From: Antedon mediterranea
Taxonomy: Eukaryota > Animalia > Echinodermata
Direction of reading: 5' to 3'
DNA: 64,000 nucleotides
Assembly: GCF_964355755.1 (NCBI RefSeq)
Contig: NC_092670.1
Location: 11,828,795 to 11,892,794 of the forward strand
Part shown: positions 471-56,686 of the stretch, in pieces
Position numbering within the stretch: the first letter of the stretch is position 1
Layout of the letters: each line of letters begins with the position of its first letter
Notes under the pieces: generated by a model
What the model was told of the DNA's origin: nothing
Database searches by the model: none
Seen by the model: the letters and a program-made list of their open reading frames with translations, nothing else
Position numbers and translations under genes: made by a program

Positions 471-3400
471 ATGGCAACAGGTAATGTTAAAGATTGAAAA
501 TAACTGATTTCATCTTGCATACCACCAACATTTCAAATTAAATTTCTTTAAAATGTTCTCTTTTAAATAATTTTATAGATTTTACTGTGAATTTAGTGAA
601 CGTTTCAGGATGGTATGATGACCACAACCTCTTTCGACAGCTGAAAGTGTTATACCACGATTTAATTACAGTAGCGAACATAGACAAAGCCAAGAAAACA
701 ATAGACTTACTGCACCAATTAATGACATCAGGATATTTGAGTTCAGACAAGCCTTCGTTACTTTACGAAACAATCAAAGTAACTCAAACATTTGAAGTAA
801 TGAAAGTTGTCCAACAATCTTTCTTCGAAGATCAAGAAATCAAAATTACAACGTTCACTCCATATCGACACTGGATTTTAGATTTCGGAAATGGACTTAC
901 ACAGGCTGATGTAGAAAACATTGATGCACTGTACAATGGTACTGCGCTAAAGAAATACCAAGATGCTTGGAGTATGATTTTGGATTTTGAACACAGACAA
1001 ATACTTTGTGAAGACAAAATTGAAGAATTTATTACCAGTCTTAACAAAATTGGACTACACTCAAAGGTGGAATGCCTGACTAAAGGTATGTTGTAGGACA
1101 AAATTTGCAAAACCATGTTTATTTGAGGAAAACTATGAAAATAGTGAAATCCACATTTTTTCCGAATAGAAGTACCTAAATAATGTAACAAACAAATAAA
1201 ACAACTTAAAAAAATTGTTTGTATAGTTTTCACATTGACCGACTGGCTTCCAACGTTTTATAATCTTCTTAATTATAATAATTACTAATGTTTAATGTGA
1301 ATATTTCTGAAATGGAAACATTGGAATTGTATTTTTATCAATGAAATGGATAAATGGTCTGAATTTATGATTCGAATGATAGACTTGTCATGAGGTAAAA
1401 TATTAATCTATTCTTATTATTTATTTATCAGGTCAAACAGTAGATAAATAAAAATAGACGTTTTTTCCACTCTATCACAGCTCACCTTTGGCATGGGCGT
1501 CTCTATTTGTCATCGAATATGTTCGATTCAAATCTAAATTCTTTGATATTTTTTACGATTAACATTGGACGATCATAACAGTGGTGATGATATCGTGATT
1601 AGGGGATCTAGGATTCTAGCCTGAATTACGGTTCTGACGTGCTATAAAATACTAGTTTATAGTGTTTCAAAAAGAGCGACGTTTCGGAACCATCATGGAA
1701 CCATTCTCAAGATCAAAATGAGTAAAGAAATTATAGTAAATGTCTCTTAATTCGTTTTTGTATTGCATCGAGAACAGTTTAACACAAATAACATTTTCAG
1801 ATGAGTATACCACTAGTATGAACTTTTGCCAATGAGCTATGCTCGACGCGATTATGAGGTCATGTTCCGAATATGAGTACTGTTTCTATAATTTGACAGT
1901 ATGATTTATATATAATTTACACAGTGCTACGCAACACAATTGATTTATATATTCCGTACCACGCCGAGAATGTTGAAGAGTCGCTATCCAATCGAGTTTG
2001 AACAATACCATGAAAGCCCCAGTGATCTAATGGTTAGGACAGCTCAAGCAGGACGGTCCGAGTTCCAGTGGATCGGTTGGGGCGAATTTTTTCTCATTCT
2101 TACAGATTTCCTTATCGTTATCGTTTCAAATTAATTAATTATTATATTTATATTTTCTTCTTTGTTATTTAGCAGAGGAAGGACCGAGAAGTATGCAAAC
2201 AGAGAAAGTGCCGAGAAGTATGCAAACAGAGGAAGGTAATTTTATACTTTTATGATGATTTTGTTGGTTTATATACATATCATGTAACAGGACATAGACA
2301 GTTTAGGGAGAGAAAATCAGTAAGGGAGATAATAGCCGCCGGAAGTTTTTTTTAGGAATTACGAGGCAAAATAAAAATGTTCAGCAGAAGAGAAATCAAA
2401 CCAAAGAAATTAGTAATAGATTTTAAAATGAAATGAAATTGGCAATGCAATTAGTAATTTGAAATGCAATTATTATTAATTAATAATCCCAAAATAATTC
2501 CATTTACCAATTCAATTGTTAAATTCAAACCATAATCGTGCAGTTCAATAAAAAGAAAAAAGAAAAACTAATCGTCACAAAATCTCAATTCACTTCACAT
2601 CCTAGGCAACAACAAGTAAATTAAAAGTTAACAAGGACAGAGTACGCATATGACGATAACCTTCCTTTCATTCCTTATAATGCTATTCATGTTTAATCAT
2701 TCAAAGTGGTCCATTTAAAATAATAACATTTCGATATATTTACATAAAGCTTGATCTAAAATTAGAAAAACGTCTTCTTGATAAATTACTTTTTAATTAC
2801 GATAGTTTGATTTACAAATTGGCATAACGCCGGGTGGTGTTTTCTCAATGTTTTTGATACATTTTGTAAATTATCAGATTTTAATTCTGTGATTCTGCGA
2901 TTGACTTGTAAATCTAGTCAACAAAAATGTAAATTTTAGAATAAGTAGGGCCTTTTCTGCTGCCAAGTAAATACCGTATATAATACGGTATTTTTTTAAA
3001 TACCGTAAATGTTTGGATGCAGAAACAGCGCTCATAAAAAATTTACCGTATTTTTTTATACCGTATGTTGAGTAGTTGCAGTAGAAACGAGTCCCGAGTC
3101 ATTCATGCATGTCAGAAATATTTTAATATTAGTTCACTCAATGTAGTCTGATATGACAATTTTTTTAATGATAGTGATACTTTCATAAAGGCCTACCGTA
3201 TACGGTTAATTTTATTTTTTTACTATGAACTTATAAGAGAAATAAATTTTACTTTGATTGATTTATAAGTGCGTTACTAAAAAAATGAAATCTTTTTAGT
3301 GAAAATGTTTAACACCTTATTTGCAATGTACTTAGCCTAAGTGCAAAGTAATGTTTACAATGAGAACATACCTTATTTTATTTATTTTTTTTTTTATCAT

Positions 3401-6400
3401 TGTATTTCTATTTTTGTAAATGATAAATGTGTCTGTTAATTAACAAAAATGTATATACAAATGTATTATCATTGTTGCCTAGTTATTCACCAAGTTGTGG
3501 AAAAAAAAGTGAATACAATTTTAAGGGAAATATTTATTGAGTTAAATGAAATGAGAGATTGGTGAATACGGCCACTGGGCTCTATTTTTCCATTCTATTT
3601 CGGATTTGTGATAAATTTAGTTTTCGTTTTGCTGTCCTCTGTTGAGCATATTTTCAACTGAAGTTTTTTTTATCTTCTGATTATCAAAAATTATGTTTGT
3701 CGCCCTCTATAAATCTAAATGTACAAATTAATACGTTATACTAAGCGTATCCGGACAACTACCCCCTGGACAATTACCACCCGGACAACTACCACCCGGA
3801 CAATAACCCCCTAGAACAACTACCACCCATCTACACATAATTAATTTTGTCAATACAGAATGAATTTTGTCTACACAGAATTAATTTTGTCAACACAGAA
3901 TTAATTTTGTCTCCACAGAATGAATTTTGTTTACACAGCTCAGAATGAATTTTGTCAATACAAAATGAATTTTGTGTTGACTACCCCCTTAGGACAACTA
4001 CCCCCTTAGGATAACAACCCCCGGACAACTACCCCCCGGACAACTACCCCCCGGACAAGTACCCCCTTAGGACAACTACCCCCTTAGGATAACTACCCCC
4101 GGTCAACAATCCCCCGGTCAACTACCCCCTCCCCCGGACAACTACCCCCTCCCTTAGGACTATATTTATGTTCAATCTTTTACTTTTGTTTACAATAATG
4201 AATAGTAATTCGTCAAAGTAACGAATTAAAATATAGTTATTAATTCCTATTATACACTGTTGCAGAGTCAGGTTGTTGAATGGTCTGGGTGGTAGTTGTC
4301 CGTCCGGGGGGTAGTTGTTCTAAAGGGATAGTTGTCTGGGTGGTAGTTGTCCAGGGGTTAGTTGTCCTACGGAGGTAGTTGTCTTAAAAGATTATTTGCC
4401 CTCGGAGTATTGTCCAGGTCCAGGAGGTAGTTGTCCGCGGGGTAATTACCCGGGGGGGGGGGGGGTAATTGTCAGGGGGTAATTGTTCCTAGGGGTAATT
4501 GTCCGGGGGGTAGTTGTCCAGGGGTTAGTTGTCCTACGGAAGTAGTTGTCCTAAAAGATTATTTGCCCTCGGAGTATTGTCCAGGTTCAGGAGGTAGTTG
4601 TCCTACGGGGAGTATTGTGTCAGAGGTAGTTTTCCGCGGGGTAATTACCCGGGGGGGGTGGTAATTGTCCGGGGGGTAATTGTCAGAGGGTAATTTTTCT
4701 AAGGGGTTTTTTTCCGGGGGGTAGTTGTCCTAAGGGGGTTGTTGTCCTAAGGGGGTAGTTGTCCGGGGGTATTTGTCCGGGGGGTATTTGTCCGGGGGGT
4801 AGTTGTCCTAAAGGGGTAGTTGTCCTAAGGGGGTAGTTGTCCTAAAGGGGTAGTTGTCCTAAGGGGGTAGTTGTCCAGGTGGTGGTTGTCCGTGGGGTAG
4901 TTTTCCGGGGGTAAATGTCCAGGGGGTGAATATCCGGATACGATTTGGATGCATGACAGTCATAATCACTGGAACTGTTGGGGGGTTTAGTTTTATAAAC
5001 TGAAATCTATCAATTACATTCGAATTATGAATAGTGGAAAAGAAACAAATGGAAACACAGACGTTGAGGCAAGCACTATTTCAATTTCAGGAACGGCAGA
5101 CGATAATACACCGGCTGAAATAAGATGCCGGGCTATCAAACGTTTTGTGGTCGATGAAGATGTGGAGCAACAGGATACGTCGGCGTGCAAATCCTGGATT
5201 GACGAACATGTGTTCATTATTATAGGAGCAGTTATGTTAATATTAGTAGTTGTTGCAGTCTCTGTCACGTTGGGTCTTCTTTCCATTGAATCAAATTCCA
5301 CTGGTAAGTACTTCTTGGCTTTCATCTTAGCTTCCTGCGACGTTTGAAACAAACATTTTTCCAGCCTCCTGCGTAAATGGTTCGTGCTTGGTACTATGAT
5401 AAAGACCGTTTTGATCGTTATCATTAGTTTTTTCCTTAAAGTATAGCTCCCCCCAGCTCTTACGTTTAAGTGTGTGATTATACAAAAAAAAAAGGAAATA
5501 TGACTATTTCCCAACAACTCATTTCTAAAACGTCGGGCAGAAAATAGTGTTTTTTAATATATTACAATTTTTTTCAGTAACTTAAAGGAGAGGTTATTAG
5601 TTTACAATACGTCAATAAACGCGTTATACTTCGCGACGTACGAGTTGTGTTCGTGGTGAACGCATTGGTGTAATTTTTGGTTAATTAGGCCTAATGAATG
5701 CAAATTTTTAAGGCCCATGTGATATTTCTTCAGTATGTTTTACATATAACATTATGATTTGCACTGTACAACAGCATCATCTTAATTAAGTTGCTTATTA
5801 ATTTTAAGCCAGCTTTCTACTTAGCCTAACTAGCTAGGCTTGGATCCATGTCTAGGCCTATATATTCATAAGTTCGAAAAGGCTTGGTCGTTTCGCCCTA
5901 TTTATCGTTACTGGGTTGAAACACAAAATCATCTACAAACAAATTGTATTGTTCACATCACAAAATTGTTAAGTGACGTGAAAGAAAAAGAAAAATTGTT
6001 CAGGTACCCTAGATCATGATGTGTAGTCCGAAGCTGGGTGGTTGCCATAACAAACTTCACTGCTGCTGTAAGGCCATCACAGCCTAGCTAAGCCAAGCAG
6101 CAGCATCAGTACATACCTAGTAGGCCAAGGCCTAGCTTTATTGAATATATAGCCACGTCTTTCTAAGATCTCCTTAAAATAGACATTTTAGTAATAATCT
6201 CATAATCACATCATTACACTGTGAAAACAATGTAGGGTCACATCCAGAATGTTTACATATACTACTTTCCAACCGTCAAAAACTACATCGCGACGAGAAC
6301 AGATCACCGTGCAAGTGCAGTAGATAGTGTTATTGTGAAAAACTCACATGATCATTTTACTGCCTAAATTAATATAAAAAAATACCAATTGACCTTATTA

Positions 6401-7219
6401 TATTGGTGGAAAATTTACGCAAAATTGCGCAAGGTATACTCAATAAAAAATACAGTAATGGAAAGATCTAGAAAAATTACATCAAAAACATTTTAAGATT
6501 TTTTCTAGTATCTTTAATTAGTTCAAGTGCGGCGTTTGAGGTCAGGTGTTTAGCACGAAACCCATATTGGTGGGTGTTTAAAATTTAAAATTTGGTTCGA
6601 TAGTCATTATATATAGACTATTATGCATTGCCTTTTCAAAGATTTTTGAAAATACAGGTAACACTGATATCGGGTGGTAATTTATAATTTCATCAATGTT
6701 TCCTTTATAGACAGGGATAATCTTTGCAATTTTTATTTTATCGAGAAAAATACCAGACTCAAAAGAAATATTTTTATTATGTGAGTTAGTGTCCCGCGAC
6801 GCTGGAAACAAAGCTTTTTCCAGCCTCCTGCGTAAATGGTTCGTGCTTGGTACGTTTTGATCATTAGTTTTCTCCTTAAAGAAGAGCTCCCCTCAAACTT
6901 TTATTATGTTTAGAAAAGTTTAATTAAAGTGATTATACAAAAAAAAAAGGAAAAATATGGCAATATATTTAATAATATGGAAATAGTGCTTTTTAATATA
7001 TTACATTTTTTTCTGCAGAGTCAACTACAATGGCGATTGGTACGACCACACACGAGGCATCAGCAGTAAGTGAATTTGACACGTCCAACACGAACGGTCT
7101 TGCATTACGATCGACAACCATTACACATACATCAACTACAGAGTCAACGGCGAATGCTAAGACAACACCGATAAGTACAACTATAATCCAAAATTCACCA
7201 ACGACAGAGTTAACTAATG
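471..7219 (+). CDS. 5' part of gene 1: tandem DED-like domains, linker, transmembrane helix and Thr-rich stalk (exons 471-480, 579-1085, 2176-2235, 5091-5303, 7019-7219)
   Basis: ATG at 471. All introns are GT-AG and phase 1. Exon 579-1085 encodes two helical repeats; the second (FTPYRHWILDFGNGLTQADVENIDALY...WSMILDFEHRQILCEDKIEEFITSLNKIG) fits the DED pattern. Exon 5091-5303 has the hydrophobic stretch VFIIIGAVMLILVVVAVSVTLGLL. Exon 7019-7219 is Thr/Ser-rich. The donor at 7220 (GTACAG) is weak. Confidence 0.7.
3746..4942. mobile_element. Foldback-type element with modular inverted arrays of GGACAACTACCCC(C) repeats
   Basis: Ends CGTATCCGGA...TCCGGATACG. The left arm has C-rich repeats and the right arm their reverse complements (GGGGGTAGTTGTCC). 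An internal ~20-bp repeat lies at 3838-3980. No TSD seen. Confidence 0.75.
6578..6790 (-). mobile_element. LINE reverse transcriptase fragment (CR1/L2-like)
   Basis: Translation SFESGIF.DKIKIAKIIPVYKG...NYHPISVLPVFSKIFEK matches the RT N-terminal region. Confidence 0.8.
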
Positions 7220-9513
7220 GTACAGCCATAATATGGCAAATTGTTTTATCATTTACTTCTGAATTAAACTTTAAGGCAATTGGTTGCAACTTAAGTCCAA
7301 TATAGGCCTATTCGACTTAATATGCAATATATCACAATCATGTCATTAGCACAAATGCATAGATTAAGATATCGGACAAACTGAAAATGTAATCTGGCAT
7401 CACATGCATATATTCAGTTTATATTAAAAAATATTTAATGATATTTACCAGGATTTAATTAGTATAGATAGAGATAGCCACATGCGATGGTAAAATAGAC
7501 CTAACTAGAATAGCTAAATTACGTACATTTCCTGTTTTTAATATTCATTGTCGTTGCAATGTAAAACAAGAATATTTCTTACAAAAAACGCTGCTCGCTT
7601 ATTGTTATTGCTAAGGTCAAGTCTGGGGGTCACTTCAAGTATCCCATTACAAACAAAAACTTCAATGGACTGTTTTGATAATAATTCAATGATTATCTGA
7701 CAGCGAATTATAGTAATATCATGGGACTCATAAATACCAGAAATGCTTTGGGATTTGTCGACTCTTTTCCCAGCCGTTTTTTGGATTCAACAGGTGAAAT
7801 TATAGTGGAGTTTCCATTTTAACAAAAATGTCAAAATGTAGTACTATAAAGCTGCTTGATTTCATCTAATGAATGAGTCATCTCGTGTGACGTAGCGGGC
7901 TAGAGCAGCAGGGTGAAAAATACTTTTACTTCTATCAAGTTTAATCATCACTGTTCCGACGTACGCAAAGCAGAAAACGATGTGTAATAATATGTACGAT
8001 AAACGGCAATATGCTAACGTCGTCGGCTCTAATTAATTAACCAATAATTAATATAATTAATAATATATAATAATAATTATTATTATTATTATTATAAAGT
8101 GCTTTAAGAATACGATTTATTTTATCGGAAGAAACAATTGAGGAAAATATATAATTATTAAGAATTAGAATGTTGTAAGATGTAAATGAAACACTGGTAA
8201 ACAAATGTTAATAGAAATGCGTGCGTTTGTTTTTGCGTGTAAAATTAAACTAATGAAATGAACTTGAAATATTAGTAAAACACCACTACTCAAGAGAAGA
8301 TGCTAAGGCATTGAGGAATTTATTTTTTAGATATGTTTCTGAACAGGCTCAGAATGAATTTCTGACTGTGTGCGTCATGAGAAGGTACATGGAAAACCCC
8401 GTCATATGGGTCGTTGATTTGTCCGTAGTCATTGCATTTTGCCGGGGATTCCCCATCATTTAAGTATTTCCGTAGTACCCTATTTATTTATCTTCATTTC
8501 CCTACGTCCGTAATATTGGGCCAAATTTCCGTAGTAATTACGGGCGTTCCGAACTTTCAAATAACAGTGTTTAATTGCTTCTTTCTGCAAATTTCTTTCA
8601 TATTTTCTTTTCTGGAGTGTTGATAATAGGCCTAGTAATTAGTTTGGGGACTTCCTCTGACGTTCGTATTGAACGCAACACAAATGTTATCCTTAGTCGC
8701 ATTTTTATCCGAATTATTACTCATTTTGTTTGTATATTATTGACATGATATGATATGTTCATTTATTCTGTGCATGTTAAAATATGTTAAATGCATACGG
8801 TATCGCCGCAAATTACTCAATTATTATTTTTATGTTGAGTCTGATATGTTCGTTTTATTTATGCACATGTGTTCTTAAGACCTAAGCTCCATGATAAAAC
8901 ATTGAATTACTCCTGTATTGTATTAAAAACTAATCAAATGAAGACGACAAAGTTTTATTAATTTATTTCATTTTATCACTAATTTTCTTCTTGATTCTGC
9001 TTCTATTGATGTGTGAGTTCCTGATATTCCTCTTTACACCTAAACAATGGAAGGAAAAACGTTTTAATTAAATTTCTTTTTTTTTTCTTAGCATTTCTTT
9101 TTTCATAGCCAAACTATTAATACGCCGTCTGTAATAAGAGAGTATTTAAACTGTGTCACTGATAGTTAAATTTGTTTTTCGCCAAGACTCCATGATACAA
9201 CTAAACTGGAATGGAAACAACAAATCTAATAAATGCAAATTGTAGTGGAATAACGTTAAGAATGATAACACTGTAATGGTAGTAATAGTCATAAAAAATA
9301 CTATACAACAAAGCATGAGATGCGATAACTAATAGCAAAAACAATAGCACGGTCTAAAATATGCGTGAATGGCGGCGCGGCGCGCCATAGAAATCTGTTG
9401 TGGCCGAAACTGTCTGTGGCCGAAACGGTCATATGCCGTTAGTATTAGGGTAGGCCTAGGCGTTATAGCCTTGCTAGGCCTAGGATTGTTTGGTTGTTTG
9501 TTGACATAATTAA

Positions 9514-9780
9514 AGATGTATTTTCCCTTGAAACACAAAAAATGAAGGTCAAATATTCTAAATTTAAATTGGCCATATTAAAATAATATTAAAGTTATTC
9601 AGTTAAAGTCGAAAATTCGACCCAAAAACCTAACCTAATTAACAGGTAAATTAATTTGATTGCATTTCGTCTGGAAAATTTTCGCGAGCGAAAGTAACCA
9701 AAGATTTCAAACCACGAGTATGCATTATGCATGATGCTAATTAGGTTTTTTTACAACTCACAACAGTTGACAAGGTGTTT
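9514..9780. mobile_element. Truncated copy of the Kolobok-like MITE
   Basis: Matches the first ~270 bp of the element at 26589 (TTAA followed by AGATGTATT...CCCTTGAAACAC). Confidence 0.75.
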
Positions 9781-11369
9781 AATAATTTAAATGTTAAAGT
9801 AGTAATAATAACTAATCTAACCCCGGCAAATACTAGTAATCTGACGTGAACCAAAAACAAAAACGAATAGCACATATTTCAATGACAGCTCAATCATCCC
9901 AGAGAATGTCGTGCAACAGACAAATAAAATATCTCTATACGAGCACGTTAAAAATGACAATATGCACACATTAAGTGCCCAAAAGTGCTGACAAATTTCT
10001 TTTCCATCCCTTTTTAAAATGCAAATACTCTTTAGAATGGAAGATGACCTCAAAATGTGTAACTTATTACGAAAGCCAATGAGTTGTAAATATGAATTCA
10101 TGTGCATATTAAACGTACAAAATGGTATGACGTCACCATTTGGCCACATGAATTTTTAAAATAGAGTTTTTTCACCTTTTGTCATAGATAATCACCTTCA
10201 AGAGTGCATTTCGCTTATCTGTGCTCAATTTTCGCTCAAATTTTATTATATGCTTGCTAAAACAATTATCTTATTCTCTTTTTATCAGTAAAATTATGAA
10301 AATGGTGTCTTATAATTCGTCAAAGTAACAAATATTAAATTCTACTTATTTTTTGGTTTCGTGTTTTACGTGACAATGTTTGACTTCTTGTAAAAATCCA
10401 CTATTAATGGTAATTTTCTTCTTGGTTTAATTAGTTATTTGTTATTTTCTATGCAACATTAATAGAAATAATTGTTTATAAAATTAAATGAAATAACAAA
10501 AATGAAATTAGCTAATTTGTCCAGGTTTTACGTGACAATGTTTGACTTCTTGTAAAAATCCACTATTAATGGTATTTTTCTTCTTGTTATTTTCTATGTA
10601 ACAATAGAAATATTTGTTTATAAAATTATTTATAAAATTAAATAAAATAAACGAATGAAATTGCTTTTTAAGATAGTGTTACAGTACATTTACCTTGATT
10701 AGCTAATAAAATCAAACCAATTTAATGCTTTACTAAATGTATAGACTCAGTATTTGATATTACATGTTATAGGCATCAATAGGGATTACCACCAAAAGAT
10801 TTAATGGTGTTTCTTGGTCACCTAGAACTTCTCAAATTATTGATTCTTACATTATTATTAAACTTAAAGGCCAGGTGCGGCCAAAACATTTCTATTGATC
10901 ATACATTCCAATAATTATCGATCAATAGTTTCCCCTATGTTTCATTATTTTTGGCATTTTATTTTTGTTACACGAACTTGTTGAAAATAAGCACTTTCTT
11001 ATCAGTGTAGGGATAGTACAAATTTTGTAAATAGAGAGGCATTTTTAAAAAAAAGCTATAAAAAATAAACAGTTTAGTAAAAAATGTTATCAGATGACTA
11101 AATATAGGTAATATAACGTGAATTTTACTTTTTTTTTTATTCAATTTTAGAATTTTATTTTTATGCTATAGCAAAAATTATCCACCGTATATCCATCATC
11201 TTTTTTCACCTTTTAGGGAGTCACCAGACATGTTATTACATTAGGTTAAACTACATAACTACTGAAAAAAAGTTTTTATGGCAGAATTTTGGCAAATATT
11301 TGATTTATGTACAAATTACCAGATATTATATTTAAAATTCATGCCTGTATCTAAGCTTTAAGGTTTGTC

Positions 11370-11510
11370 TACACTATCAAACTGTATGTGTCAAAAAATG
11401 TGATGTGCCCATATATGGACATGATGATGTCATATCACTAACATATTTAAGCATAGCACTACCATATAAGGGCACATCAAACTTTTTTGACACATAAAGT
11501 TTGATAGTGT
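11370..11510. mobile_element. Small palindromic MITE-like repeat
   Basis: Inverted arms ACACTATCAAACTGTATGTGTCAAAAAA...TTTTTTGACACATAAAGTTTGATAGTGT. Confidence 0.6.
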
Positions 11511-11853
11511 CAATTCTTTTATAGAGACACACTCTTTTCTATCAGAGTTAAAATACAATCTTGCGGTTTAGTTGTTTCATGTGGGAATAAAACAAAAGAT
11601 ATAGGCCTATATTCTTTGCTAACACCTATCAGAGTAATAAGAGGAGGAGTTCCATTGGATGGTTGTAACTCAGATATGATGATTCAGATCAGCCACATTA
11701 AAAACTAAAAATTGAATAGAAAAATGACCTTAATATAATGACAAATTAGGCCAAAACTATGAATAATTTTGTATATCCTAACACTTGATTTTGCCTAAAA
11801 AATATCAGTGAGTTTTTCCCACCATAACACACGTCAAACTTTATACATTTTAG

Positions 11854-14790
11854 AGTGGTTGATGGGGGACTGTGGCAACATTTTACAATTTTATCCTGTG
11901 AGTGGTGAATATGTGATACAACCAAGTGACGGAGGACCACAAATTAATGTGTACTGTGATATTAGGGAAGATGGAAATTGGACGGTAAGACAACAGTTAT
12001 CAAGAGTAAACCCATCTTTATTAATTATTCTATAACACACAAACAAAAACAAAATGTATCCATCATCATTACTATAAGGACTACCAGGGATCAGCATGGA
12101 CAGAAAACATTTATTATAGAGAACAATGTTAATGATTTGGGAGATAAGCCTTTACCAGCAACAGTGCGACGTTACAGAAAATTAAGTTGAAAGGCCAATG
12201 ATTTATACTAATGTTCCAAATCATGCATACTAAGCACCAAGAAACAACTTAAGTGTAGTCAAATGATACACTATTGACTTAGTGTACTTTAATCGTAATA
12301 ATACTGACCAGGTTCTCATTTCATTCAGTTCTATTTATGCTTGTTCAGTAAAGTAGGCTAGAGTATATATATAACTAAATCTTTTTATGATCAGGTGATA
12401 CAGAGAAGACAAGATGGATCAGTTGATTTCTACCGTAATTGGACAGAATACAAAGAGGGTTTTGGAAATGTGAACACAGAGTTCTGGCTTGGTAATGAAC
12501 AAATCAACCGTTTAACAGCTAATGGAAATTTTGAGCTAATGGTAGAAATGACAGATCACTTGAATGTAACAAAGTTTGCAAAATATTCCCAATTCCATGT
12601 TGGTACTGAGGACTCTAACTATGTTTTGACAATCAGTGGATACACAGGAACTGTAGGTTAGTATATTCAATCAATTTTATCTGAAGAAAGTAAACAAAGA
12701 ATTAACATTGATACTTTTAGCACTCCTACACTCTTTGTAAGTTGCAGTAAAAATAGTCTATGAACTACTCACATACTGCATGTTTTTCTTTTATTTATCA
12801 CATTTGAAGTGTATAATAAAATTAATGTTTAGAATTACAACTGCTTAAATAAATGATAAGGACATTGACTGGGACAGAACCTAAAACATGTACTGTACCC
12901 AAGGTTCCTAAAGTTTAGGGTAATAATTTGTAGCATGAAATAGAACATAGATAAATGAGGAACCCATGTTAAAATGTAATAGTATTATTATTCAAGTTGA
13001 CAATTTTCTAGTGTTTTCTAATCAATATAACTCTCCAGTGGGAACACGTTTGTTTAATGAATTTGTTTACATATTAATCTATTTGCAAATATTGTAGAAA
13101 ACATCAAGTAAAAAGATAGAAATCAAATTTCACCAAGGTATTTGGAACTTATTTAGGTTAGAAATGAAAGAAACTGATTTCAAATGAATACTGTAAATGG
13201 AAATATTTTCGCATACAGAATGATTCGCTTAACTACTTTCTTGACATTTTCGCGTATTGATATTTTCACAGATTTCATTTTAGTCTAGGCCTAAAGTAAA
13301 GTATAAAAGTGTCGACATGAGCTATCATATTAACATCCTATTATTATAGCTGAGGCCCATACAGTGGGCCTTAAGGTCTAGCCTACATTCCGTATTCACA
13401 GTACTACAGTAGTAAATTAAAAACAAATGTTTCTATATTTGTTTAATCCTTTTTATATTCACAAAACTTCCAATAAACTAACTGCAAAAGTATCTTGAAA
13501 ATATTCTTTTTTCAAACCAATAATTAGTTTTTACTAATTATTGGTTTGAAAAAAAGAATATTTTCAAGATACTTATACCTACAAACCAGATGAACATTTT
13601 CAATCATAACTGCAAAAGTGTCGAGCACTGCTGCAGTACTGAGACAGTACCGTAAGAATCTGTAGCTTTTTTCGGTTTGCATGTTGTTTACATTCAACCC
13701 AAAATCTGCGAAAATTAAACCATTGCAAAAATAACGGCATATAAAATGTACAGTGTATTATGCAACATACTAAAGCTGAAAAAAGTTGGACCAACGTTAA
13801 GAAAAGCTCCTAAAAACATCTGAAAAATAGAACAAAACAGTTATAATAATGATATTATAATCTAATCTATTATTATAATCTAAATTGTCTATAATGTAAA
13901 TTGTTGGATGGCCTTCCCACTTCAAAATTCTTTCTTATAGGCCTGAAACAAATCTAACAACATTAAAATGTTCAAATGCACTCATGGTACAACTTATCTA
14001 TTCTGTAATGGAACAACTCTCAAGGTCAAATGACATTTGATCATTTTACTTCAGCAACTACATTTGTTTTAATGTAGGCATTTATGAGGAAGTCGAGGCA
14101 ACAGTATGTGTATAATTAATATCCAAACAAGCTTGCTAAATAATTGCACAAACAGGTTAAAGAGTGAGTAAAATATAATTACTGCCAGTAACTGCAGAAT
14201 TATAGAATTTTCTACCCAAAACAATTTTTTTGGTAAAATCAGACAAAACACAGTGAAATTAAAAACAAATTAAATGTAATTAAATAATAAAAAATACTAT
14301 TTATAGACCTAAATTGTGTTTATGATTTAATGTATGGCAATTTGACAAAAAAAAATTAAATATGTTAATAAATTACAAATTATAGGATATTTTATTATTT
14401 CTATTTTCCCTTTTATATCAAATACCTTTTATTTTATTTTTAATACAAAGAAAAACAAATATTTAAAATGAATTTTAATTTAAAGATATATGAAGTAAAC
14501 TAAAGATGATACGTTTTGTTTGTTTAGGTGATTCTTTGGCATGGTACCACAATGGTGAACAATTTACAACCAAAGACAGAAACAATGATAGGAACAGTGG
14601 TAACTGTGCTGAGCTATACAAAGGTGCTTGGTGGTACAAAAGCTGTTATGATTGGTATGGTCTATCAAACCTGAATGGCCTTTACCTTACACCAGGTACA
14701 GATGATAACAGAGGCATCATCTGGTGGCATTTCCATAATAATAAAAACAGTCTCAAGAAGACAGTGATGATGGTTAAAAGAGCACCATAA
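11854..14790 (+). CDS. Fibrinogen-related domain (FReD) exons of gene 1 (11854-11984, 12395-12656, 14528-14790), ficolin/FIBCD1/tenascin-like
   Basis: Motifs VYCD...[27 protein letters not shown]...EFWLGN, then GDSL.YHNG..FTTKDRNND...NCA..YKGAWWY...SNLNG. Splice phases 1/0/1 are consistent. Stop TAA at 14788-14790. Confidence 0.92.
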
Positions 14791-17440
14791 GATAGTTGTC
14801 ATGATTCAAACATGAATGGCTTTACCTACACCAGATACAGTTGATTACAATGGCATCAACTTGTATACTTTTGATAGAGGCCTTAAGACAACAGTGATGA
14901 TGGTTAAGAGAGCAGCACAAAATAATCAGAATCTGTAATTATTGAATAATTTGACTTATGAATAGGCCTAATATATAGGAATAACGAAGATTCCTCTTTT
15001 GTTTCTTTTAGCTATTATCCATTTGGAATTATCATTAAATAATTGTATTGTTAAATAACAGCTCGTTATCTAATCCAAATGTTACAGAATTAATAATCGA
15101 ATATATTGTCATATCACTTGTGATTTGTTTAAACATTATTAGTATTTTAATTTATATAATAATATAAATATTATGTAAACTTTCATTAGGCATACAAAGA
15201 TTAATAACAGTTATTTTTTTAAATTTTATTATTATTTGAATTTATGCTATAACTACATATATAATAGTAACAATAATATTAATTGTTTTTAATTACAAAA
15301 TAACATTAAATTGATATTCAATCAGTGTATCCTTTCATTACTGATAAATTAGTAGTTTGTAAATCTAACTTTAGGAGTATGATTTTTAGTCTATATTGAA
15401 TCTTGTTTTAAAGTTATTAAAAATGAAATAAAAACATATAATGAATGTGTATGTATTTTTTAATGTAAAGATGGCTTTTTTAAAGATATTAACAATCACC
15501 ATGGTGGATATAATTAATAGGCACCACTAGCTCTTTTTTAGATATGTAATAAGTGAATGTTTTAAGGTTTTTTATTCATGTATGTTTTTAATTGTATGGT
15601 ACGATATCTAATTTTATTAAGATGTTTCTATTTTTATAGCAATTTTAACTAATTTTTAGTCATTTGTAATACATTTCATTTCAGTCCTTGACTGTCGTTT
15701 TGTAATATATTTTTATATACCGAATAAATAAAAAAAAAACAAAAAAACAAAAAAACTCCAACATTGGATCTTCATAATAATTGTTTTGGAAATTCACTAA
15801 AATTTACTTATTTATGCAAATACGAGGGGGTTTATTCAGATATGAATACAAACAATATACATACAAATATATTATTCACCAACTGTTCTAATACCACACA
15901 CGTGAGACCAAAGACGATCAATTATTAATAACATTCTTAGTGCATGTATAGAGGTAATTGGCAAGTTACTCGATGTTGGATGGAGATGAAATAAAAAATA
16001 AAAATGGCCTTCTATCAAATAAAGCGCGTCTTATTCTTCAATACATATCAACAATATAGATGGATATAACGTTTTAGTATCATTTTGATTTTCGATTTCG
16101 ATTCTTACTGTTTCAGTATATTTTATTTTATTCGTCATTATAATCAATGCATTAAAGAGAAAAACGAAATGCATCACCAAAGCGGTTACTAGGGAGAGAA
16201 TGTGAATTTATTAATTATCGCAAGAAGCTTTCTCAAATAATGTCGTCGTTATCACAGTTGTTCAGCTGTGACGTTTGACTACACGGCCCATCTGAATTGA
16301 AAGAAAGACAAACACCAGGTGCTGGAAAAAATAGTTATCAATCTATAGTTTCCCCTATGTTTTATATTTGTATATTAATATCAATCCATTACTTGTTGGT
16401 CAAGTTAGTGAAAACCAAACATGTATGATTTACCCTTCAAACTTGAAAATTTTGATACCATTAAGATTTTTGACTTGAAAGCTATGTAAGATATTGTTGC
16501 TGGAGAGAATCGACGTACCTATTTAAATAATATTTGTTTTGTCAGTCATCAAAATAGATTGATACAGCTAATTCAATATAGGAAAATAATTATGTGTTTG
16601 TTTAATTTATCTTCATCACATAATGAATTATACAGTTCGTAAATTCTATACTTATATATATAATTTATTGGAGATAAACACGTTTTCTTATGTTTTATGT
16701 CTCCTAAAAAAGAGTCGAGTTCATTTAATATTGGAAAATTGAACAAATTATTGATTGTAGTGGCCATAAATTTATATCTTGTGTTTACTACAGAATTGTT
16801 TATCCAGACTCCTGAAATTATTTATATTATTAAATATTTTAACTGGTCAGAGTTTTAAAGATGAGAAAAAGAAATGGCACAGAAATTCATGATTATCACA
16901 GCAAATGTACCACTTTTCTGTCTGGATTCAATTACATTTTTTAATATAATTTATGTTTTAATGTTTTTTTATGAGGAAGTGCATACAGAAAAAAAGAAAA
17001 GATTCGATTGGAATACGTAGGACTTGCAAATAAAAATTATAACTGGACACCCATTATGAATTGTTGCAGGTATTGAATCAGATCAGGTGCTTCTCAATAA
17101 AACAGAAATAAATTAAATATTTTTAGAAAGTAATCTGTATTTTAATTATTGTAATTTGAACACCAAAAAATGCGTCTAAAAAAAAAGAGCATGTATATCT
17201 TCATGATTTTTTATACATTATTATTTTATTTATTTTATTCAATCTCATTCAACAGCGGGAAACCCGCCCCTTAAAGAATGGAATAAAATATACAAGGGCT
17301 AGTGTTGCCCGAAAGCTCTGCTAACTTTTCTGGCTGTTTACTTTATCGTTTTGATTTAGCTTTTCGCTTTTTATTTTTGTATCTCCATTGAGATCCAGCC
17401 ACTGATACCCACAGCATTGTCATTTTTTTCAGTAATTTGC

Positions 17441-17770: not shown

Positions 17771-20700
17771 ATGCTAACTTCAACTTTAATAATTTTCTTT
17801 CTTCTGCTCTTTGTTGTCGGTGATCTTTCGATCAATACATATGATTATACGGTTATCCTAGAGGGGCATGCTTTTGAAGGTTGGAGTTACGAGTTGAAGA
17901 ATATACACAAACTAAATTGTTTGCTGGAATGTTCCAAGAAATCTGATTGCTTGTCGGTTAACTATAACCAGAAGGATCGTGTTTGTCAAATCAATAAGCA
18001 AATACTGGAAACGTCATCAGTTGAAAACAACATAATTCAAGCGCCTGAATTTTGTTACATTGAAAGGAGTAAGTATACAATTTTGCAAACTTATTAAAGA
18101 TGTATTGTCCCTTGAAACACAAAAAAATGATGGTCAAAATATTCTAAATTTAAATTGGCCATATCAAAGTAATATTAAAGTTATTCACTTTAAGTCGAAA
18201 ATTCGAGCCAAAACAACAAGTTTACGTAAATAACAGGTAAATTAGTTTGATAACATTTCGTCTGGAAAATTGTCGCGAGCGAAAGTAAACAAAGATTTCA
18301 AACCACGAGTACGCATATTGCATATGCTAATTAGGATTATTTACAACTCGTCACAGTTGAGAAGGTATTTTCACACAGATCGTAAAGAAGTTTTATGAAA
18401 TATGCATACAGAGTAGCGAAACAAGCACGTTTCATTATGGGATATGTTTTGATGGAAAACTTTGACTGGAAGTCAAAGTTATTTTTTAAACAAAAAAACG
18501 TCTGTATTTTAGTTAAATGATTTTTTTTTCGACAAATTTTTGGTGATAGTTAATAACTATTATGATACTTCAAAATTACCCACCTTTTTTCGAAATCTTT
18601 AATTTTTTAATTTTTTGGGATTAGTCAAAGGGACAATACATGGATTCTTTATATAGAGGTTCACATCAATGTTGATTGGTAGTGATATTTTGTTGCTGTT
18701 GAATTTGCCTAGGAATTGTTCTCTTTATTTTCATATAAGTCAATAAAAAGTGTTCTTCAAAATGTTACAGTACATCTACAAGGATTGAATTAACCTACTA
18801 TAAATTCAGACCAAATGACTACATGAGGTGGTACTGCATGTTATATGCATATCTACCTAGTCCATGGGATTATCACCAAGGGATTCAGTTGTGCTTGATG
18901 GTCACCTGGAAACTAGTTTAAATTTTTGCAGAATTATAAATTACTATTACGGTACTTATTACTATTAAAATTACAAAATGTGCACATTAATGAATTGTAT
19001 TAGTTTTACAATTGAATATTGCATTTCCTCTAAAATAGATACAAACTATTTTTCCCAATAATATACCAGTGTGATCTTTTTTTTAAACAACAATCTTTTT
19101 TAATTTTTTTTATTTTAGAGAGTTTTATGAGGGACTGTGGTGACATTTTACAATATAATCCTTCTGCTAATGGTGGTGAATATGTGATACAACCAGGTGA
19201 TGGAGAACCAGAGATTACTGTTTACTGTGACATGAGGGAAGATGGAGGTTGGATGGTAAGTATACAGTAGGCAACAATTTATTCAAAGAAATTAGAAGTA
19301 CCGTTGATCCAACATCACTGCCACAGCTTACTAATTCATTACTAAAACAGTGCCAGGGACAGAAAACACTGATATGGCTTTAGAAGCATAAACATAACTG
19401 CGGAAACTTTCAGGTTGACAAATATGTTTTAGTTTTAACCGAAAGAGCGACCATTATATACTAATGTTCCAAAACTTGCATACTAAGAACCAACAAGCAA
19501 TTTATTATTACTGGCAGTTAGGTTCTCATTTCATTCATTGCTATTTACGCTAGTTGATGGGCCTGTCATCACTGTTTTAGTAAAGCTAAAGTAGAGTAGG
19601 CCTAAAGATTACTTTCTTTTCATTATCAGGTGATACAGAGAAGACAAGATGGATCAGTTGATTTCTACCGAAATTGGAAAGAATACAAAGAGGGTTTTGG
19701 AAACGTGAACACAGAGTTCTGGCTTGGTAATGAACAAATCAACCGTTTAACAGCTGATGGCGAATTTGAGCTATTGATAGAAATGACAGACCACTTGAAT
19801 GTAATGAAGATCGCAAGATATTCTCTCTTTCGTATTGGTACTGAGGACTCTAACTATGTTTTGACTATCAGTGGATACACAGGAACAGCAGGTTAGTATA
19901 TCTTTAATCAATTTAAACAAGCATATTGTAGGGTTTCTTATGCATTCTTAATCAGGTACAAAAGAAATAATTATAGAATCTTAATCTACCTAATGAAATA
20001 AAGTTATAATACCTTCTTATGTATTAAACAGGTGTTTTATTGATAATGGAAAAAAAAAGTTGGGTGGGGAACTGAAAATCCGTGTACCTTATAATGAACA
20101 GTCTATTTACTTGCATACTGCATGTTGTAATTTAAGTATAATAACTATGACCAATAAAACCTTTAAATGTAAGGTTTTAAAACTGGAGTTCCGTGTACAT
20201 ATCTGGCTCGTGTACACTCAAAAGAAACCAGATCATCTTTCAAGAGTGGGTGTAGGTGTTCTTATCTGATCCATTCAGACCCTGTCGTTGTGGGCAGACG
20301 AACGGGCACCGTTTGGTGGCAGCACACGACACGAAAAGACACTAAGGGGAGAAGAAAGTTATAGCATGTGTCGTCCACACTAGTTAGGCTACAAGTCAAG
20401 CCACATTTACATTTACATTTCACATTTATTACATTTACAAAATATAAACAAAAATATTTAAAATAAAACAACCATATGATATTATAACAGTTACGAGAAT
20501 TAAAACAATTTAAAATAAATAAAATAGAGAAACAAAAATAATATTTATAATTGCGTTATGATTTAAGTTATGGCATACAATTCTTTTACAGACAAATTTA
20601 AATTTAAATCAGTATAAAATAAATTACGAGTTGTAGGTTATAATTATAAAATTATAATATTCACTTTCATATATCTTTTTATTTATAATTCACAAACCGT

Positions 20701-21019
20701 ACAATTATTTAAAAATAAATGTGAATTTAAATATTTATAAAGTAAACTAGATTATCTAATATTTGTTTTTTTAGGTGATTCTTTGCAATCGTACCACAAT
20801 GGTCAACAATTTACAACGTATGATAGAGACAACGATAAGAGAAGCAGTAGTAACTGTGCTGAGTCTTATAAAGGTGCTTGGTGGTACAATGACTGTTATT
20901 ATTCAAACCTGAATGGGCTTTACCTTACACCAGGTACAAATGATAACACTGTCATCAACTGGTCTAATTTTAATAATGGCCTTAAGACAACAGTGATGAT
21001 GGTTAAAAGAGCAGCATAA
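17771..21019 (+). CDS. Secreted PAN/apple + fibrinogen-related domain protein, about 313 aa (exons 17771-18068, 19119-19255, 19630-19891, 20775-21019)
   Basis: Hydrophobic N-terminal signal peptide, PAN pattern [16 protein letters not shown]...CQIN, and three FReD exons paralogous to gene 1. Exon lengths sum to 942 nt in frame with canonical splice sites. Confidence 0.9.
18098..18641. mobile_element. Kolobok-like MITE in intron 1 of the PAN-FReD gene
   Basis: TTAA then AGATGTATTGTCCC at the left end and GGGACAATACAT at the right end. Closely similar to 26589-27133. Confidence 0.8.
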
Positions 21020-28652: not shown

Positions 28653-31600
28653 CATACTGTAAATTATAGAAACAGTGCTCATATTCGGAACATGATCTCA
28701 TAATCGCGTCGAGCATAGCTCATTGGCGAAAGTTCCGTATTTTTTAGTTGTATGAAAAAATGTCTCTGGCGGGATTCGAACCTGCAACCTCTCGATTACA
28801 GGGCGAGTATCATACCACTAGACCACAGAGCCATGTATGGTATTATCACAGATTTTCACCCACCAGATACATTCTCTCATACAACAAACGCCCTCACAAT
28901 CAGTGGAGGCTCGATTATGAGATCATGTTCCGAATATGAGCACTGTTTCTATAATTTACAGTATGATTTATATATAATTTACACAGTGCTACGCAACATC
29001 ATTGATTTATATATATATATATATATACACTGTATATATCAGGAAAGAAATAGGTGCTGCACAGGCAAGATCATGTATAAACATAAAACGGACACATTTC
29101 TTGTTTCTGCCTCAAAATAAAATATTTATTGAACGAGTACTGTATTATATAATTATTATTATACTTATATAATTTAGATGTAAAAAAATATGAAGAAAAT
29201 GTTGTATGTATGTATAGTAGTACTGCATTATATATATATTATTATAATAAATATTATACTTACATATTAATTATATTGTGGAATAAATCAGTATAATTAT
29301 ATTATGATTTGTCTCAACAATTTCAAATCATGTTTTCTGCAATATTTTACTAACTGTAGATCAATTTATACCTCCATGCTTTAGATGATCAATTCTTTAT
29401 CAAATCAGTTTTTGTTTTACTATTTAAAGTCAATATCTGATTACATACCCTAATTATGTTACCACGCACCTAATGCCTTAGTTACATTTGAGGGTAGAAA
29501 TCTGATCCGTTCAAATTCTTAAATATCAGACTTTATGATATGATTCAAGTTTTATGTTTTTGAAAATAAGTAGTTTATTTAATAAGCTGGTAGATATGCA
29601 GGAATGATGACTTAAACACCTGGATGATACTTTCATTGTCAGTTATTTTTCGCCTTTTTACAAAATATTTTTTTATTAAATGAATTAATGCTACAGTACT
29701 GTAGTAGAATAGATTATTTTAATTACCTAAATAATCAAAGTTTTCTTTTGTTTTTCTAGTGCTTGTCCGGTTTTTATTGTAATATAATAGATTTTTAACA
29801 TACTTTAAATGACAGTTTAAACAATATTATCTACTTTGTTGATATACAGTATATTTGTGCAATGGAACAAATAATTTCATTCAGTCAAAGAGAATACTGT
29901 AATAAAATGTGATAAAATAATAGTCATATTGCCTGCATCTCTGGAAAAAATTCCATAACCTTTGTATTTAATATAGTTGTTTTTGGCTTTTTACCAAACA
30001 ATTAAACCGGCCAGAATTTTAAACGTTCTTCTATCAGTATCATAATTCATATTATATTTCTTTTGTTGAAAATGGCACCCTGACATTTATCATCCAATTC
30101 CCCTTATCAACAATTCCTATTTTGTTCTTAACTAGGTTAAGAATAATTAACTAACACAATATTCTATTGTTAGTGAAGAGTATTTATGAAACACTATGTA
30201 CATGAATGTGTGTATTATTTCATGGGTTAATTAAAGAAGTTGATTTAGAGCACCAACAAGTCTTACAATTTTGACTATTCTTATAATTTTAATTTTTAGA
30301 TTAATTTTTTTACATATGAAATTTTAATTAAAGATAAATTAATAATAAATAAATCAGAAGCTCCGCAGAAATTTCTTTCTTTTTGGCTGTTTTACTTTAA
30401 TCATTTTGCTTATTATTATTTGGTTTCCATTGAGATACAGCAACTGATACTCACATCATTGCCATTTTTAATAAATAATATACTATTATATTTTATTAAT
30501 TATGACTATTTTTTTTACAGAGCAGCTGAGGCTAGGAATCGGTTACGTGTTATAAGACTAAGATACCAAGCTAATAGGGTGAGTTATTGATATTGCCTAT
30601 GATATCATCATAATATCATCATTATGTTATTACCTTATTATCATCATGATCGTCATCATAATTATGACAGCAAAAAAATAAATAAAAAAATACAGATGAA
30701 GCTTAAATTCTTTTTCTAGGCCCAAGAAGTCAAGCATCTGATATCGTGTCAACCCACAGCAATCAAGGCTGTCCGTCTGCAAGTCCTAGTACCTCCTTAC
30801 CCTGATAATGACAGCCCAGGAGATGCTCTTGATAAGCTCCAAGTAAGCAGTATTTTTAATATAATTTTTCTTTTTACTTTTATAATTATGAACCACCATG
30901 TTCACTTTTATCTAGAAAATAAATTTGTTACTACAACTTGTTTTTTCTTTATTATAGTTTAAGCATAGGATGTTACAGTATTACTTGATATATATAAGCA
31001 CTCGAAAACCATGTAAAATATTAGTAAAATTCTTAGTTTTATTGTTAATGTTTATTGTTTTTAGAATACACTCATACAGTTGTATGGCACGCTCACAGAC
31101 ATTCTGAGCTTTACTACCGCGAGGGGCGCTGTTTCTAACTTAATTGCCCAATTAGCAGCCTGCTGTATAGGATTAGTTCTCAACACCATATTGTATACTC
31201 TAGTACCCTGTACTCTTATAACATCTTTCTTTTGTAGACATCAAACTAACATTGAAAACACATACACCCACACACAAAAAAAGACAAGAATAAAAAAAAT
31301 CCCAGACAAATCTTTATTTTAATTTTCAACAACACTGGCCTAAATATAGTCATTATTTTGATGATCCATATTTTCAACCAAGCCATACTGTGTTTTTTTA
31401 AACATTAATCATTCAGTAGCTATATTTAAATTAAAATAGAAGTGATTTTCCACATGTTTCATATCCATTATTAAATTAAAACACTAAAGATAGTGCATAG
31501 GACATATGCTATGTTTGCTATTAAATGCTATCACAAAGAGAGCGCAGGCTAATTAGTTTATATAGCTCCATATGTAGTATATATAATGTGCTTTTCTGAA

Positions 31601-34210: not shown

Positions 34211-35102
34211 ATACGTATTGAGGTAACTCGGAGATCACAATAATCCTGTGTATGTAGGCGTACGTAAAAAGGGTCTAAATTTTGCCATTTAAAAAAATAT
34301 CCATGTTATAGACCTACTATGTAGCCTACAGCAAAAAATGACTAAAATATGTATTGAAGTAACATGCGCAGAACACATTATATGTATTGAAGTAACATGC
34401 GCAGAAGAACACGTTAGGCTAAATAGGCTATGTATTGAAGTAACATGCGCAGAACACGTTAGGCTATATAGGCTATGTATTGAAATAACATGCGCAGAAA
34501 ACGTTAGGCTATTATAGGCCATGTATTGAAGTAACATGCGCAGAACACGTTAGGCTATAATAAGGTTATGTATTGAAGTAACATGCGCAGAACGCATTAT
34601 ATGTATTGAAGTAACATGTGCAGAACACGTTAGGCTATTATAGGCTATGTATTGAAGTAACATGCGCAGAACACGTTAGGCTATATTGGCTATGTATTGA
34701 AGTAACATGCGCAGAAAACGTTAGGCTATATAGGCTATGTATTGAAGTAACATGCGCAGAAAACGTTAGGCTATATAGGCTATGTATTGAAGTTACATGC
34801 GCAGAACACGTTAGGCTATTATAGGCCATATATTGAAGTAACATGCGCAGAACACGTTAGGCTATATAGGCTATGTATTGAAGTAACATGCGCAGAACAC
34901 GTTAGGCTATATAGGCTATGTATTGAAGTAACATGCGCAGAACACGTTAGGCTATATAGGCTATGTATTGAAGTAACATGCGCAGAAAACGTTAGGCTAT
35001 ATAGGCTATGTATTGAAGTAACATGCGCAGAAAACGTTAGGCTATTATAGGCCATGTATTGAAGTAACATGCGCAGAACACGTTAGGCTATATAGGCTAT
35101 GT

Positions 35103-36044: not shown

Positions 36045-36096
<52 letters not shown>

Positions 36097-50106: not shown

Positions 50107-56686
<6,580 letters not shown>

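What the first reader, a model, noticed from the sequence alone, without database searches (positions are those of the whole stretch)
471..14790. Candidate 'lectin death receptor': tandem DED - TM - mucin stalk - fibrinogen domain in one type II membrane protein
Seen: eight phase-compatible exons (471-480, 579-1085, 2176-2235, 5091-5303, 7019-7219, 11854-11984, 12395-12656, 14528-14790) sum to 1647 nt, a 548-aa frame. It has no signal peptide, two DED-like repeats, one TM helix, a Thr-rich stalk and a complete FReD. The first FReD exon needs a phase-1 donor, and I found no separate start or signal exon between 7300 and 11850. Established: tandem DEDs drive caspase-8/c-FLIP/FADD assembly; FReDs (ficolins, FIBCD1, FREPs) are oligomeric pattern-recognition lectins; FIBCD1 is type II but has no death fold; TNFR-family death receptors are type I and use a DD plus FADD. 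Inference: a receptor that couples extracellular glycan recognition directly to DED/caspase-8 recruitment without an adaptor. I know of no described protein with this architecture, but I could not search.
Basis: partly seen in the sequence, partly recalled or inferred. Interest (0 to 1): 0.9.

Follow-up and report, generated by a model that had tools for sequence, protein, structure and literature searches.

The report
Death-effector fibrinogen receptor in feather star
A feather-star gene joins a pair of death-effector domains to a membrane anchor and a fibrinogen-type recognition domain, and its five copies keep the middle almost unchanged while the predicted binding end varies, so it is likely a variable cell-surface immune sensor wired to death-fold signalling.

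Summary
The eight exons give a 548-aa frame identical to an Antedon mediterranea RefSeq protein. The N-terminus folds as a tandem DED (best match caspase-8, Z 14.5), followed by one TM helix, a Ser/Thr stalk and a full FReD. RefSeq holds 14 proteins from five loci with the DED exon joined to the TM exon. Among the five, exons 4-7 are almost identical (6 of 217 columns vary) but the ligand-loop exon is not (40 of 88). One copy carries a different, NLR-sister DED (AU p 0.002-0.007). The window keeps the old start codon (5027) of a DED-less TM-FReD gene, and the fusion acceptor lies inside that old coding exon. So this is likely an NLR 5' module spliced onto a FIBCD1-like gene. Not shown: junction reads, protein, ligand or partner. 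The ficolin/FIBCD1 acetyl pocket is not kept, so 'lectin' is unproven. In crinoids this DED family also sits on caspases, TIR, Rel and RIG-I proteins, so the output need not be death. DED-bearing membrane proteins were already predicted in oyster; this architecture was not found in print.

The parts
471..480 (+). First coding exon (MAT + phase-1 donor); same MAT/MAA start as crinoid DED-NLRs; a possible 5' UTR acceptor ends at 446
579..1085 (+). Tandem DED exon, phase 1-1 (aa 4-172), 59-66% identical to N-termini of A. mediterranea NLR and Roc-COR proteins
2173..2235 (+). Spacer exon with NAGNAG acceptors 2173/2176; both forms are RefSeq isoforms (P0019, P0003)
3746..4942 (.). Foldback repeat element with 10-bp inverted ends in intron 3, ending 84 bp before the retained old ATG
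5027..5090 (+). Retained in-frame start of the DED-less TM-FReD gene; intronic in the fused model; its last bases form the fusion acceptor
   Evidence: 17 of 21 aa identical to P0025
5091..5303 (+). Juxtamembrane and single TM helix exon (TM about aa 233-258); 100% identical at protein level in all five loci
7019..7219 (+). Ser/Thr-rich stalk exon; internal phase-0 donor after 7065 gives a short stalk
11854..11984 (+). FReD exon 1; two acceptors (11854 phase 1, 11856 phase 0) pair with the two stalk donors
12395..12656 (+). FReD exon 2 (97-100% identical among the five loci)
13941..13957 (+). Cryptic terminal exon (GLKQI-stop) used by RefSeq isoforms of three paralogous loci; removes the ligand subdomain
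14078..14115 (+). Second cryptic terminal exon used by RefSeq isoforms of two paralogous loci
14528..14790 (+). Last FReD exon: Ca and ligand subdomain, only 70-84% identical among the five loci
14797..15151 (+). Partial second copy of a FReD last-exon end and 3' flank, 73% alike to the neighbour gene's; possible recombination scar

Best explanation
The eight exons give one open frame, identical to a RefSeq feather-star protein, with a tandem death-effector pair, one hydrophobic helix, a Ser/Thr stalk and a fibrinogen domain; it likely arose when the 5' end of an NLR-type gene was spliced onto an older membrane-anchored fibrinogen-domain gene, and it likely works as a type II surface sensor whose clustering would seed DED assemblies in the cytosol. 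Shown: frame, domains, fold, five paralogous RefSeq loci, retained old start, constant middle and variable last exon, two unrelated DED donors. Inferred: N-in/C-out topology (no signal peptide, death fold first, sequons and disulfide domain after the helix); FReD oligomerisation as in FIBCD1 and ficolins; ligand-driven clustering; homotypic recruitment of crinoid proteins with the same DED family (caspase-8-like, c-FLIP-like, TIR, Rel or kinase) without a FADD step. The ligand is unknown and probably differs between copies. The output is immune signalling, with cell death as one possible branch.
For: Identity with RefSeq P0003 and P0019. All 14 of 14 proteins in the four clusters join DED to TM exon; four of five loci have several isoforms. 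NCBI's pipeline, as described for another genome, keeps alternative variants only if wholly supported by a long alignment or one sample's RNA-seq (PMC5737279, passage). The isoforms use NAGNAG shifts and cryptic mini-exons that exist in this window, which ab initio prediction is unlikely to invent (inference). Tandem DED: profile hits only c-FLIP and caspase-8 at E<0.05; VIA Z 14.5, rmsd 3.2, 163 of 168 residues against caspase-8; Foldseek TM 0.71-0.77. Nearest non-FReD DED found is 66% identical, so the fused DED has diverged and stayed open, rather than being a fresh NLR fragment. Two DED donors: P0022 groups with NLR P0006 at 100/99; one-clade AU p 0.0025, 0.0024, 0.0068. Variation is concentrated in the ligand exon, 40 of 88 columns against 6 of 130 in exons 6-7. 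No DED-less isoform of these loci appeared among the 120 listed hits. A second DED-TM-ectodomain protein (FN3-like, weak E 0.0099) exists in the same species. Same-family DEDs lie on crinoid caspases.
Against: I saw no junction read myself. RefSeq models are predictions, and reads can cross-map between near-identical copies. The ATG at 5027 is intact, so a DED-less product is possible, and intron 2 has a stop at 1094 and AATAAA at 1195, so a DED-only product is possible too. The positive-inside cue is weak (1 K/R before the helix, 0 after). The c-FLIP FL position reads AL and RxDL reads KIGL. The acetyl pocket is not conserved. The architecture was found in one species only: 0 of 148 further DED-family representatives carried a FReD. 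A promiscuous phase 1-1 exon will land on many genes by chance. First DED model confidence is modest (pLDDT under 50 at 55-63 and 66-90). Exon-8 swapping is not proven (AU p 0.089).
Confidence: 0.6

Rival explanations
1. Two units with read-through: a truncated NLR 5' fragment and a DED-less FIBCD1-like gene starting at 5027. The fused transcript is minor or an annotation join, and the DED has no role in the receptor.
For: Intact in-frame ATG at 5027 homologous to P0025's start; the acceptor at 5091 is old coding sequence with the fewest T (7 of 20) of the 12 acceptors compared; no junction reads seen here.
Against: 14 of 14 RefSeq proteins at five loci are fused; two unrelated DEDs use the same acceptor; no NACHT remnant in the window; no DED-less isoform listed; DED 34% or more diverged from the nearest NLR yet open.
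Confidence: 0.15
2. The fused protein is made but is neutral or inhibitory: a by-product of DED-exon shuffling, or a membrane-bound DED decoy that caps DED filaments like short c-FLIP.
For: The DED family is attached to many unrelated domains (NACHT, Roc-COR, TIR, Rel, RIG-I, kinase, UCH, ZU5, ubiquitin); FL and RxDL motifs altered; 5 of 14 RefSeq proteins lack the ligand exon; copies are very young (DED 96-100% identical in four).
Against: Repeated coupling of two DEDs to one body and variation focused on ligand loops fit selection on a sensor; the altered motifs are shared with the NLR DEDs of the family.
Confidence: 0.15
3. One reading: an acetyl-glycan lectin like FIBCD1 that recruits caspase-8 directly and kills the cell.
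For: FReD is as close to ficolins and FIBCD1 (E about 1e-47) as to other FReDs; the Cys401-Cys414 spacing and Tyr405 equivalent are kept; best fold match is caspase-8 tDED; a crinoid caspase-8-like protein has a same-family DED pair and SHG/QAC motifs.
Against: His415 equivalent is Tyr, Gly, Tyr, Ser, Gln in the five copies; Tyr431 and Trp443 equivalents are missing or Asn here; Asp393 is Asn. The best PDB hit is the protein-binding ANGPTL2. Many non-caspase DED partners exist.
Confidence: 0.1

Closest known systems
FIBCD1 (vertebrate membrane FReD receptor for chitin; PMC3908420, abstract, passages and section 15 read)
   Same: N-terminal cytosolic part, one TM helix, stalk, C-terminal FReD; P-domain disulfide spacing of 13 kept.
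   Different: FIBCD1 has a short tail, coiled-coil and polycationic stalk and a conserved acetyl pocket. Here there is a 232-aa cytosolic part with tandem DED, a Ser/Thr stalk and a variable pocket.
Crassostrea virginica TM-DED-TRADD-N expansion (Kaur et al., PMC8195603, section 10 read)
   Same: Lineage-specific family of predicted membrane proteins that carry a DED inside the cell; constant core with a variable end.
   Different: Those have an N-terminal Cys-rich ectodomain, one DED plus TRADD-N and variable intracellular C-termini. Here the DED pair is N-terminal, and the variable part is the extracellular FReD loop exon.
Caspase-8 / c-FLIP / vFLIP tandem DED (PDB 4zbw, 8ybx, 2f1s; review PMC4558505, passages read)
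   Same: Two death folds in the same tandem arrangement (Z 14.5).
   Different: 17% identity; FL and RxDL motifs altered; no caspase domain; membrane-anchored.
TNFR-family death receptors (Fas, TNFR1) with FADD (established knowledge; PMC8195603 passage)
   Same: Works like them in outline: outside clustering drives inside death-fold assembly (inferred).
   Different: Opposite orientation, no Cys-rich domains, DED pair instead of DD, no adaptor step predicted.
Domain-grafted invertebrate RLRs and NLRs with DED N-termini (PMC8998645, passages read)
   Same: N-terminal death-fold module gained by exon-level grafting.
   Different: Those are cytosolic sensors; here the graft is onto a surface FReD gene.
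Mollusc FREPs (search listing only) and ascidian v-Themis (recalled)
   Same: Diversified fibrinogen-domain recognition proteins.
   Different: Secreted or coat proteins with no signalling domain.

Membership tests
Tandem-DED proteins (caspase-8/c-FLIP type) | Two DED folds in tandem | tested here: met
   Profile E 1e-4 to c-FLIP, 1e-3 to caspase-8; Z 14.5, rmsd 3.2, 163 aligned; model pLDDT 71.5
Tandem-DED proteins (caspase-8/c-FLIP type) | FL hydrophobic patch on helix 2 | tested here: inconclusive
   Family profile reads AL opposite c-FLIP FL in DED2; still hydrophobic, Phe absent (role)
Tandem-DED proteins (caspase-8/c-FLIP type) | E/D-RxDL triad | tested here: not met
   KIGL opposite c-FLIP RIDL in DED2
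Tandem-DED proteins (caspase-8/c-FLIP type) | Homotypic DED binding or filament | not tested
FIBCD1 | Single TM with C-terminal FReD and no signal peptide | tested here: met
   Hydropathy, Pfam; orientation inferred, not measured
FIBCD1 | Short cytoplasmic tail; coiled-coil and polycationic stalk | tested here: not met
   232 aa before the helix; stalk 45% Ser/Thr, judged by composition only
FIBCD1 / ficolin acetyl lectins | S1 pocket Tyr405, His415, Tyr431, Trp443 | tested here: not met
   Tyr kept; His is Tyr plus a 4-aa insert; the other two map to a gap and Asn in the ficolin-2 alignment (approximate)
FIBCD1 / ficolin acetyl lectins | Ca site Asp393 and Asp395 | tested here: inconclusive
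   Asn/Asp here, Asp/Asp in the four paralogs
FIBCD1 / ficolin acetyl lectins | Oligomer and glycan binding | not testable with these tools
   Needs protein
TNFR death receptors | Type I, Cys-rich ectodomain, C-terminal death domain | tested here: not met
   Only DED and Fibrinogen_C at E<=0.01; order is reversed
NLR | NACHT domain and LRRs | tested here: not met
   None in the protein; no NACHT remnant in the window

The most novel reading that the evidence does not exclude
Feather stars have built a modular surface-receptor system: a constant membrane chassis (exons 4-7) that takes its signalling end from NLR genes (at least two different DED pairs) and its recognition end from a pool of FReD last exons shared with secreted PAN-FReD genes, giving adaptor-free death-fold receptors of varied specificity that copy between chromosomes.
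Probability: 0.35. Interest if true: 0.85.

Novelty: new variant of a known kind. Interest (0 to 1): 0.72.

Why it matters
It is a gene birth with its traces still visible: the old start codon, the splice site inside the old coding exon, and the NLR donor's relatives are all in view. If it signals, an intracellular sensor's output module has been moved to a surface recognition protein, collapsing receptor and FADD-like adaptor into one chain in the orientation opposite to TNFR death receptors. The constant chassis with five different ligand exons is a ready set for testing how invertebrates diversify recognition without changing output. It also exposes an undescribed (in my searches) crinoid expansion of a tandem-DED module across NLR, RLR, TIR, Rel, kinase and caspase proteins.

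Tried and rejected
No whole genome is held, so paralog DNA, synteny and dN/dS could not be examined; the five loci are inferred from accession blocks and contig lengths. Sequencing runs: no RNA holder listed for 5000-14999. Four runs laid as contigs cover introns; none of the 15 joints shown of 374 matches an intron of the model, and no contig bridges the intron-3 repeat. I do not count this either way, nor the higher depth at some exon sites in X1, nor the low depth over 1-1334 in X3/X4. No second laying was obtained, so the junctions stay unseen. Single-sequence fold failed (pLDDT 35.6), and single-sequence PDB search found no DED. ESM Atlas gave one FReD-only cluster at 0.77 and no usable hit for aa 1-265: no evidence. 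The profile word search covered only 612-2000 aa and returned five known proteins. Complex prediction with a crinoid caspase DED pair was not available. Exon-8 swapping: the label is not clustered on the exon-8 tree (367 of 500 shuffles as low; 0% of bootstrap trees hold it) whereas it is on exon 7 (2 of 500), but monophyly is not rejected (p 0.089). A signal or PAN exon between 7300 and 11850 was sought and not found. Earlier scan findings: none. Literature: nine subject searches listed nothing on DED-TM-FReD; most hits were seen as listings only, and the library is open-access only. PMC11463336 and PMC11797021 (passages) and PMC12605758 (passages) added nothing specific. The architecture source tables of PMC8195603 were not read and could bear on novelty.
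Full report
Observation. A homolog search with the DED exon returned a 548-aa Antedon mediterranea protein carrying both DED and Fibrinogen_C. It is RefSeq XP_071957964 and equals the model letter for letter; moving the exon-3 acceptor three bases up gives the 549-aa isoform. RefSeq calls it 'uncharacterized'.

Domains. Pfam finds the first DED weakly, below its cut-off, and a single-sequence PDB search finds none. A ten-sequence family profile hits c-FLIP (E 1e-4) and caspase-8 (E 1e-3) across both repeats and nothing else below 0.05. The alignment-based model (pLDDT 71.5, second repeat about 90, parts of the first under 50) matches caspase-8 tandem DED best among 48,161 chains (Z 14.5, rmsd 3.2, 163 residues), with vFLIP and c-FLIP next and single death folds at Z 10.7 or lower. 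Foldseek agrees, though with no E under 0.001. There is one hydrophobic helix (about 233-258), a stalk of 45% Ser/Thr, four sequons after the helix and two before it, and a complete FReD. Type II orientation is inferred; the charge cue is weak.

Is it one transcript? I could not see junction reads: no RNA holder was listed and the laid contigs showed no intron-shaped joint among 15 of 374 listed. Indirect evidence is good. The four clusters hold 14 RefSeq proteins from five loci on three contigs, and all 14 join DED to TM exon; nine have the full FReD and five end early. The isoforms use a NAGNAG shift, a paired donor/acceptor shift (7066 with 11856, open in this window too) and two cryptic terminal exons present here at 13941 and 14078. 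NCBI's pipeline was described as keeping alternative variants only when wholly supported by one long alignment or one sample's reads (PMC5737279). That text is about another genome in 2017, and reads can cross-map between near-identical copies, so this is support, not proof. The P0022 locus has a unique DED and spacer, so its junction cannot be borrowed from the others.

Origin. A DED-less paralog, P0025 (XP_071957904), has the same TM-stalk-FReD body with a 21-residue leader. This window keeps that leader in frame from an ATG at 5027 (17 of 21 identical), and the acceptor at 5091 lies inside it, where the paralog has His and the window Ser. The DED exon and the MAT start are 59-66% identical to N-termini of NLR and Roc-COR proteins of the same species, and no NACHT remnant lies in the window. 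So an NLR 5' module upstream of an older TM-FReD gene is spliced into that gene's first coding exon (inference). A foldback repeat sits at 3746-4942 just upstream; any role is unknown. The coupling involves two donors: P0022's DED is sister to NLR P0006 (100/99; 134 of 169 identical, against 104 of 169 to this gene), and holding the five fused DEDs together is rejected (AU p 0.0025 with 44 rows; 0.0024 and 0.0068 with 16 rows). I had noticed the likeness by eye before testing. This means either two fusions or one fusion and a later swap.

Variation. Across the five loci the TM exon is 100% identical, exons 6-7 are 93-100% and the last exon 70-84%. Variable columns are 6 of 217 in exons 4-7 without the optional stalk and 40 of 88 in exon 8 (Fisher p 3e-13 for exons 6-7 against 8, columns treated as independent). 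Exon 8 holds the Ca and ligand sites of FIBCD1, and the pocket positions themselves differ: Tyr405 equivalent Y, N, F, F, H; His415 equivalent Y, G, Y, S, Q. This gene's exon 8 is closer to a secreted PAN-FReD (82%) than to its four paralogs (72-78%). The tree does not cluster the membrane forms in exon 8 but does not reject their monophyly (p 0.089). Exon swapping and diversifying selection both remain open.

Context. The DED profile finds 192 clusters at E<=0.001 among 1.84 billion representatives. All 19 that I named of the 148 new ones are crinoid (8 A. mediterranea, 11 Anneissia japonica). Pfam scans of 117 of the 148 show NACHT-LRR, Roc-COR, caspase, TIR, Rel, RIG-I helicase, kinase, UCH, ZU5 and others. 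None of the 148 has a FReD, while three controls did. Among the 120 listed of 162 full-length hits, only Antedon proteins show both families. One other A. mediterranea protein has DED pair, TM and an FN3-like end. The fusion looks young and lineage-restricted, within the limits of these searches.

Mechanism. Most likely the FReD oligomerises and binds a repetitive surface; the stalk (long or short by splicing) sets its reach; clustering concentrates the cytosolic DED pairs; these recruit same-family DED proteins. All four steps are inferred from FIBCD1/ficolin and DED biology. Against a strict 'lectin death receptor': the acetyl pocket is not kept, FL and RxDL are altered, and caspases are only one class of possible partner. 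I put the fused transcript at about 0.85, a signalling sensor at 0.6, and the strict glycan-to-caspase-8 version at 0.1.

Known and new. It works like a death receptor fused to its adaptor and is built like FIBCD1, but fails membership of both. Predicted membrane proteins with an intracellular DED are described in oyster (PMC8195603), and DED grafting onto RLRs in lophotrochozoans (PMC8998645). Nine searches of the open-access library found no DED-TM-FReD protein. Verdict: real, a new variant of a known kind, interest 0.72.

Noticed in passing
window 17771-21019 (+): Neighbouring secreted PAN + FReD gene with four coding exons, 88% identical to P0028 in its first exon; same FReD exon layout as the finding.
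   Followed up: partly
P0234 (XP_071959548, A. mediterranea): Second protein with tandem DED, one TM and an FN3-like C-terminus (Pfam E 0.0099), from a different DED clade; P0199 and P0247 of that clade have hydrophobic segments before NACHT or ZU5.
   Followed up: partly
P0165, P0194, P0146, P0236, P0153, P0233, P0266, P0273: The crinoid tandem-DED family is attached to Rel/NF-kB, RIG-I helicase, caspases (one with four DEDs), TIR and kinase domains: a possible lineage-wide DED signalling network.
   Followed up: partly
P0005 (XP_071948801): Tandem DED - Roc-COR - tandem DED with two C-terminal hydrophobic segments.
   Followed up: no
P0030: Another A. mediterranea FReD protein with a long N-terminus, a hydrophobic segment and no stalk; a possible second type II FReD.
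   Followed up: no
window 5327-5573 and 6786-7012: Intron 4 holds a 70% alike internal duplication; the acceptor-like site at 5578 is a copy of the exon-5 acceptor followed by a stop.
   Followed up: partly
window 51878-55661 (+): Exons of a C2H2 zinc-finger gene (judged from motifs in the ORF list).
   Followed up: no
window 58638-59591 and 60334-63303 (+): LINE-like ORF1 and endonuclease/reverse-transcriptase frames, the latter interrupted by a stop (judged from motifs, recalled).
   Followed up: no
window 34289-39010 and 42545-44794: Two long tandem-repeat arrays that give many spurious ORFs.
   Followed up: no
window 28735-28800 and 1820-1952: tRNA-like (SINE-type) repeat shared between intron 2 and a downstream site, 95% alike.
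   Followed up: no
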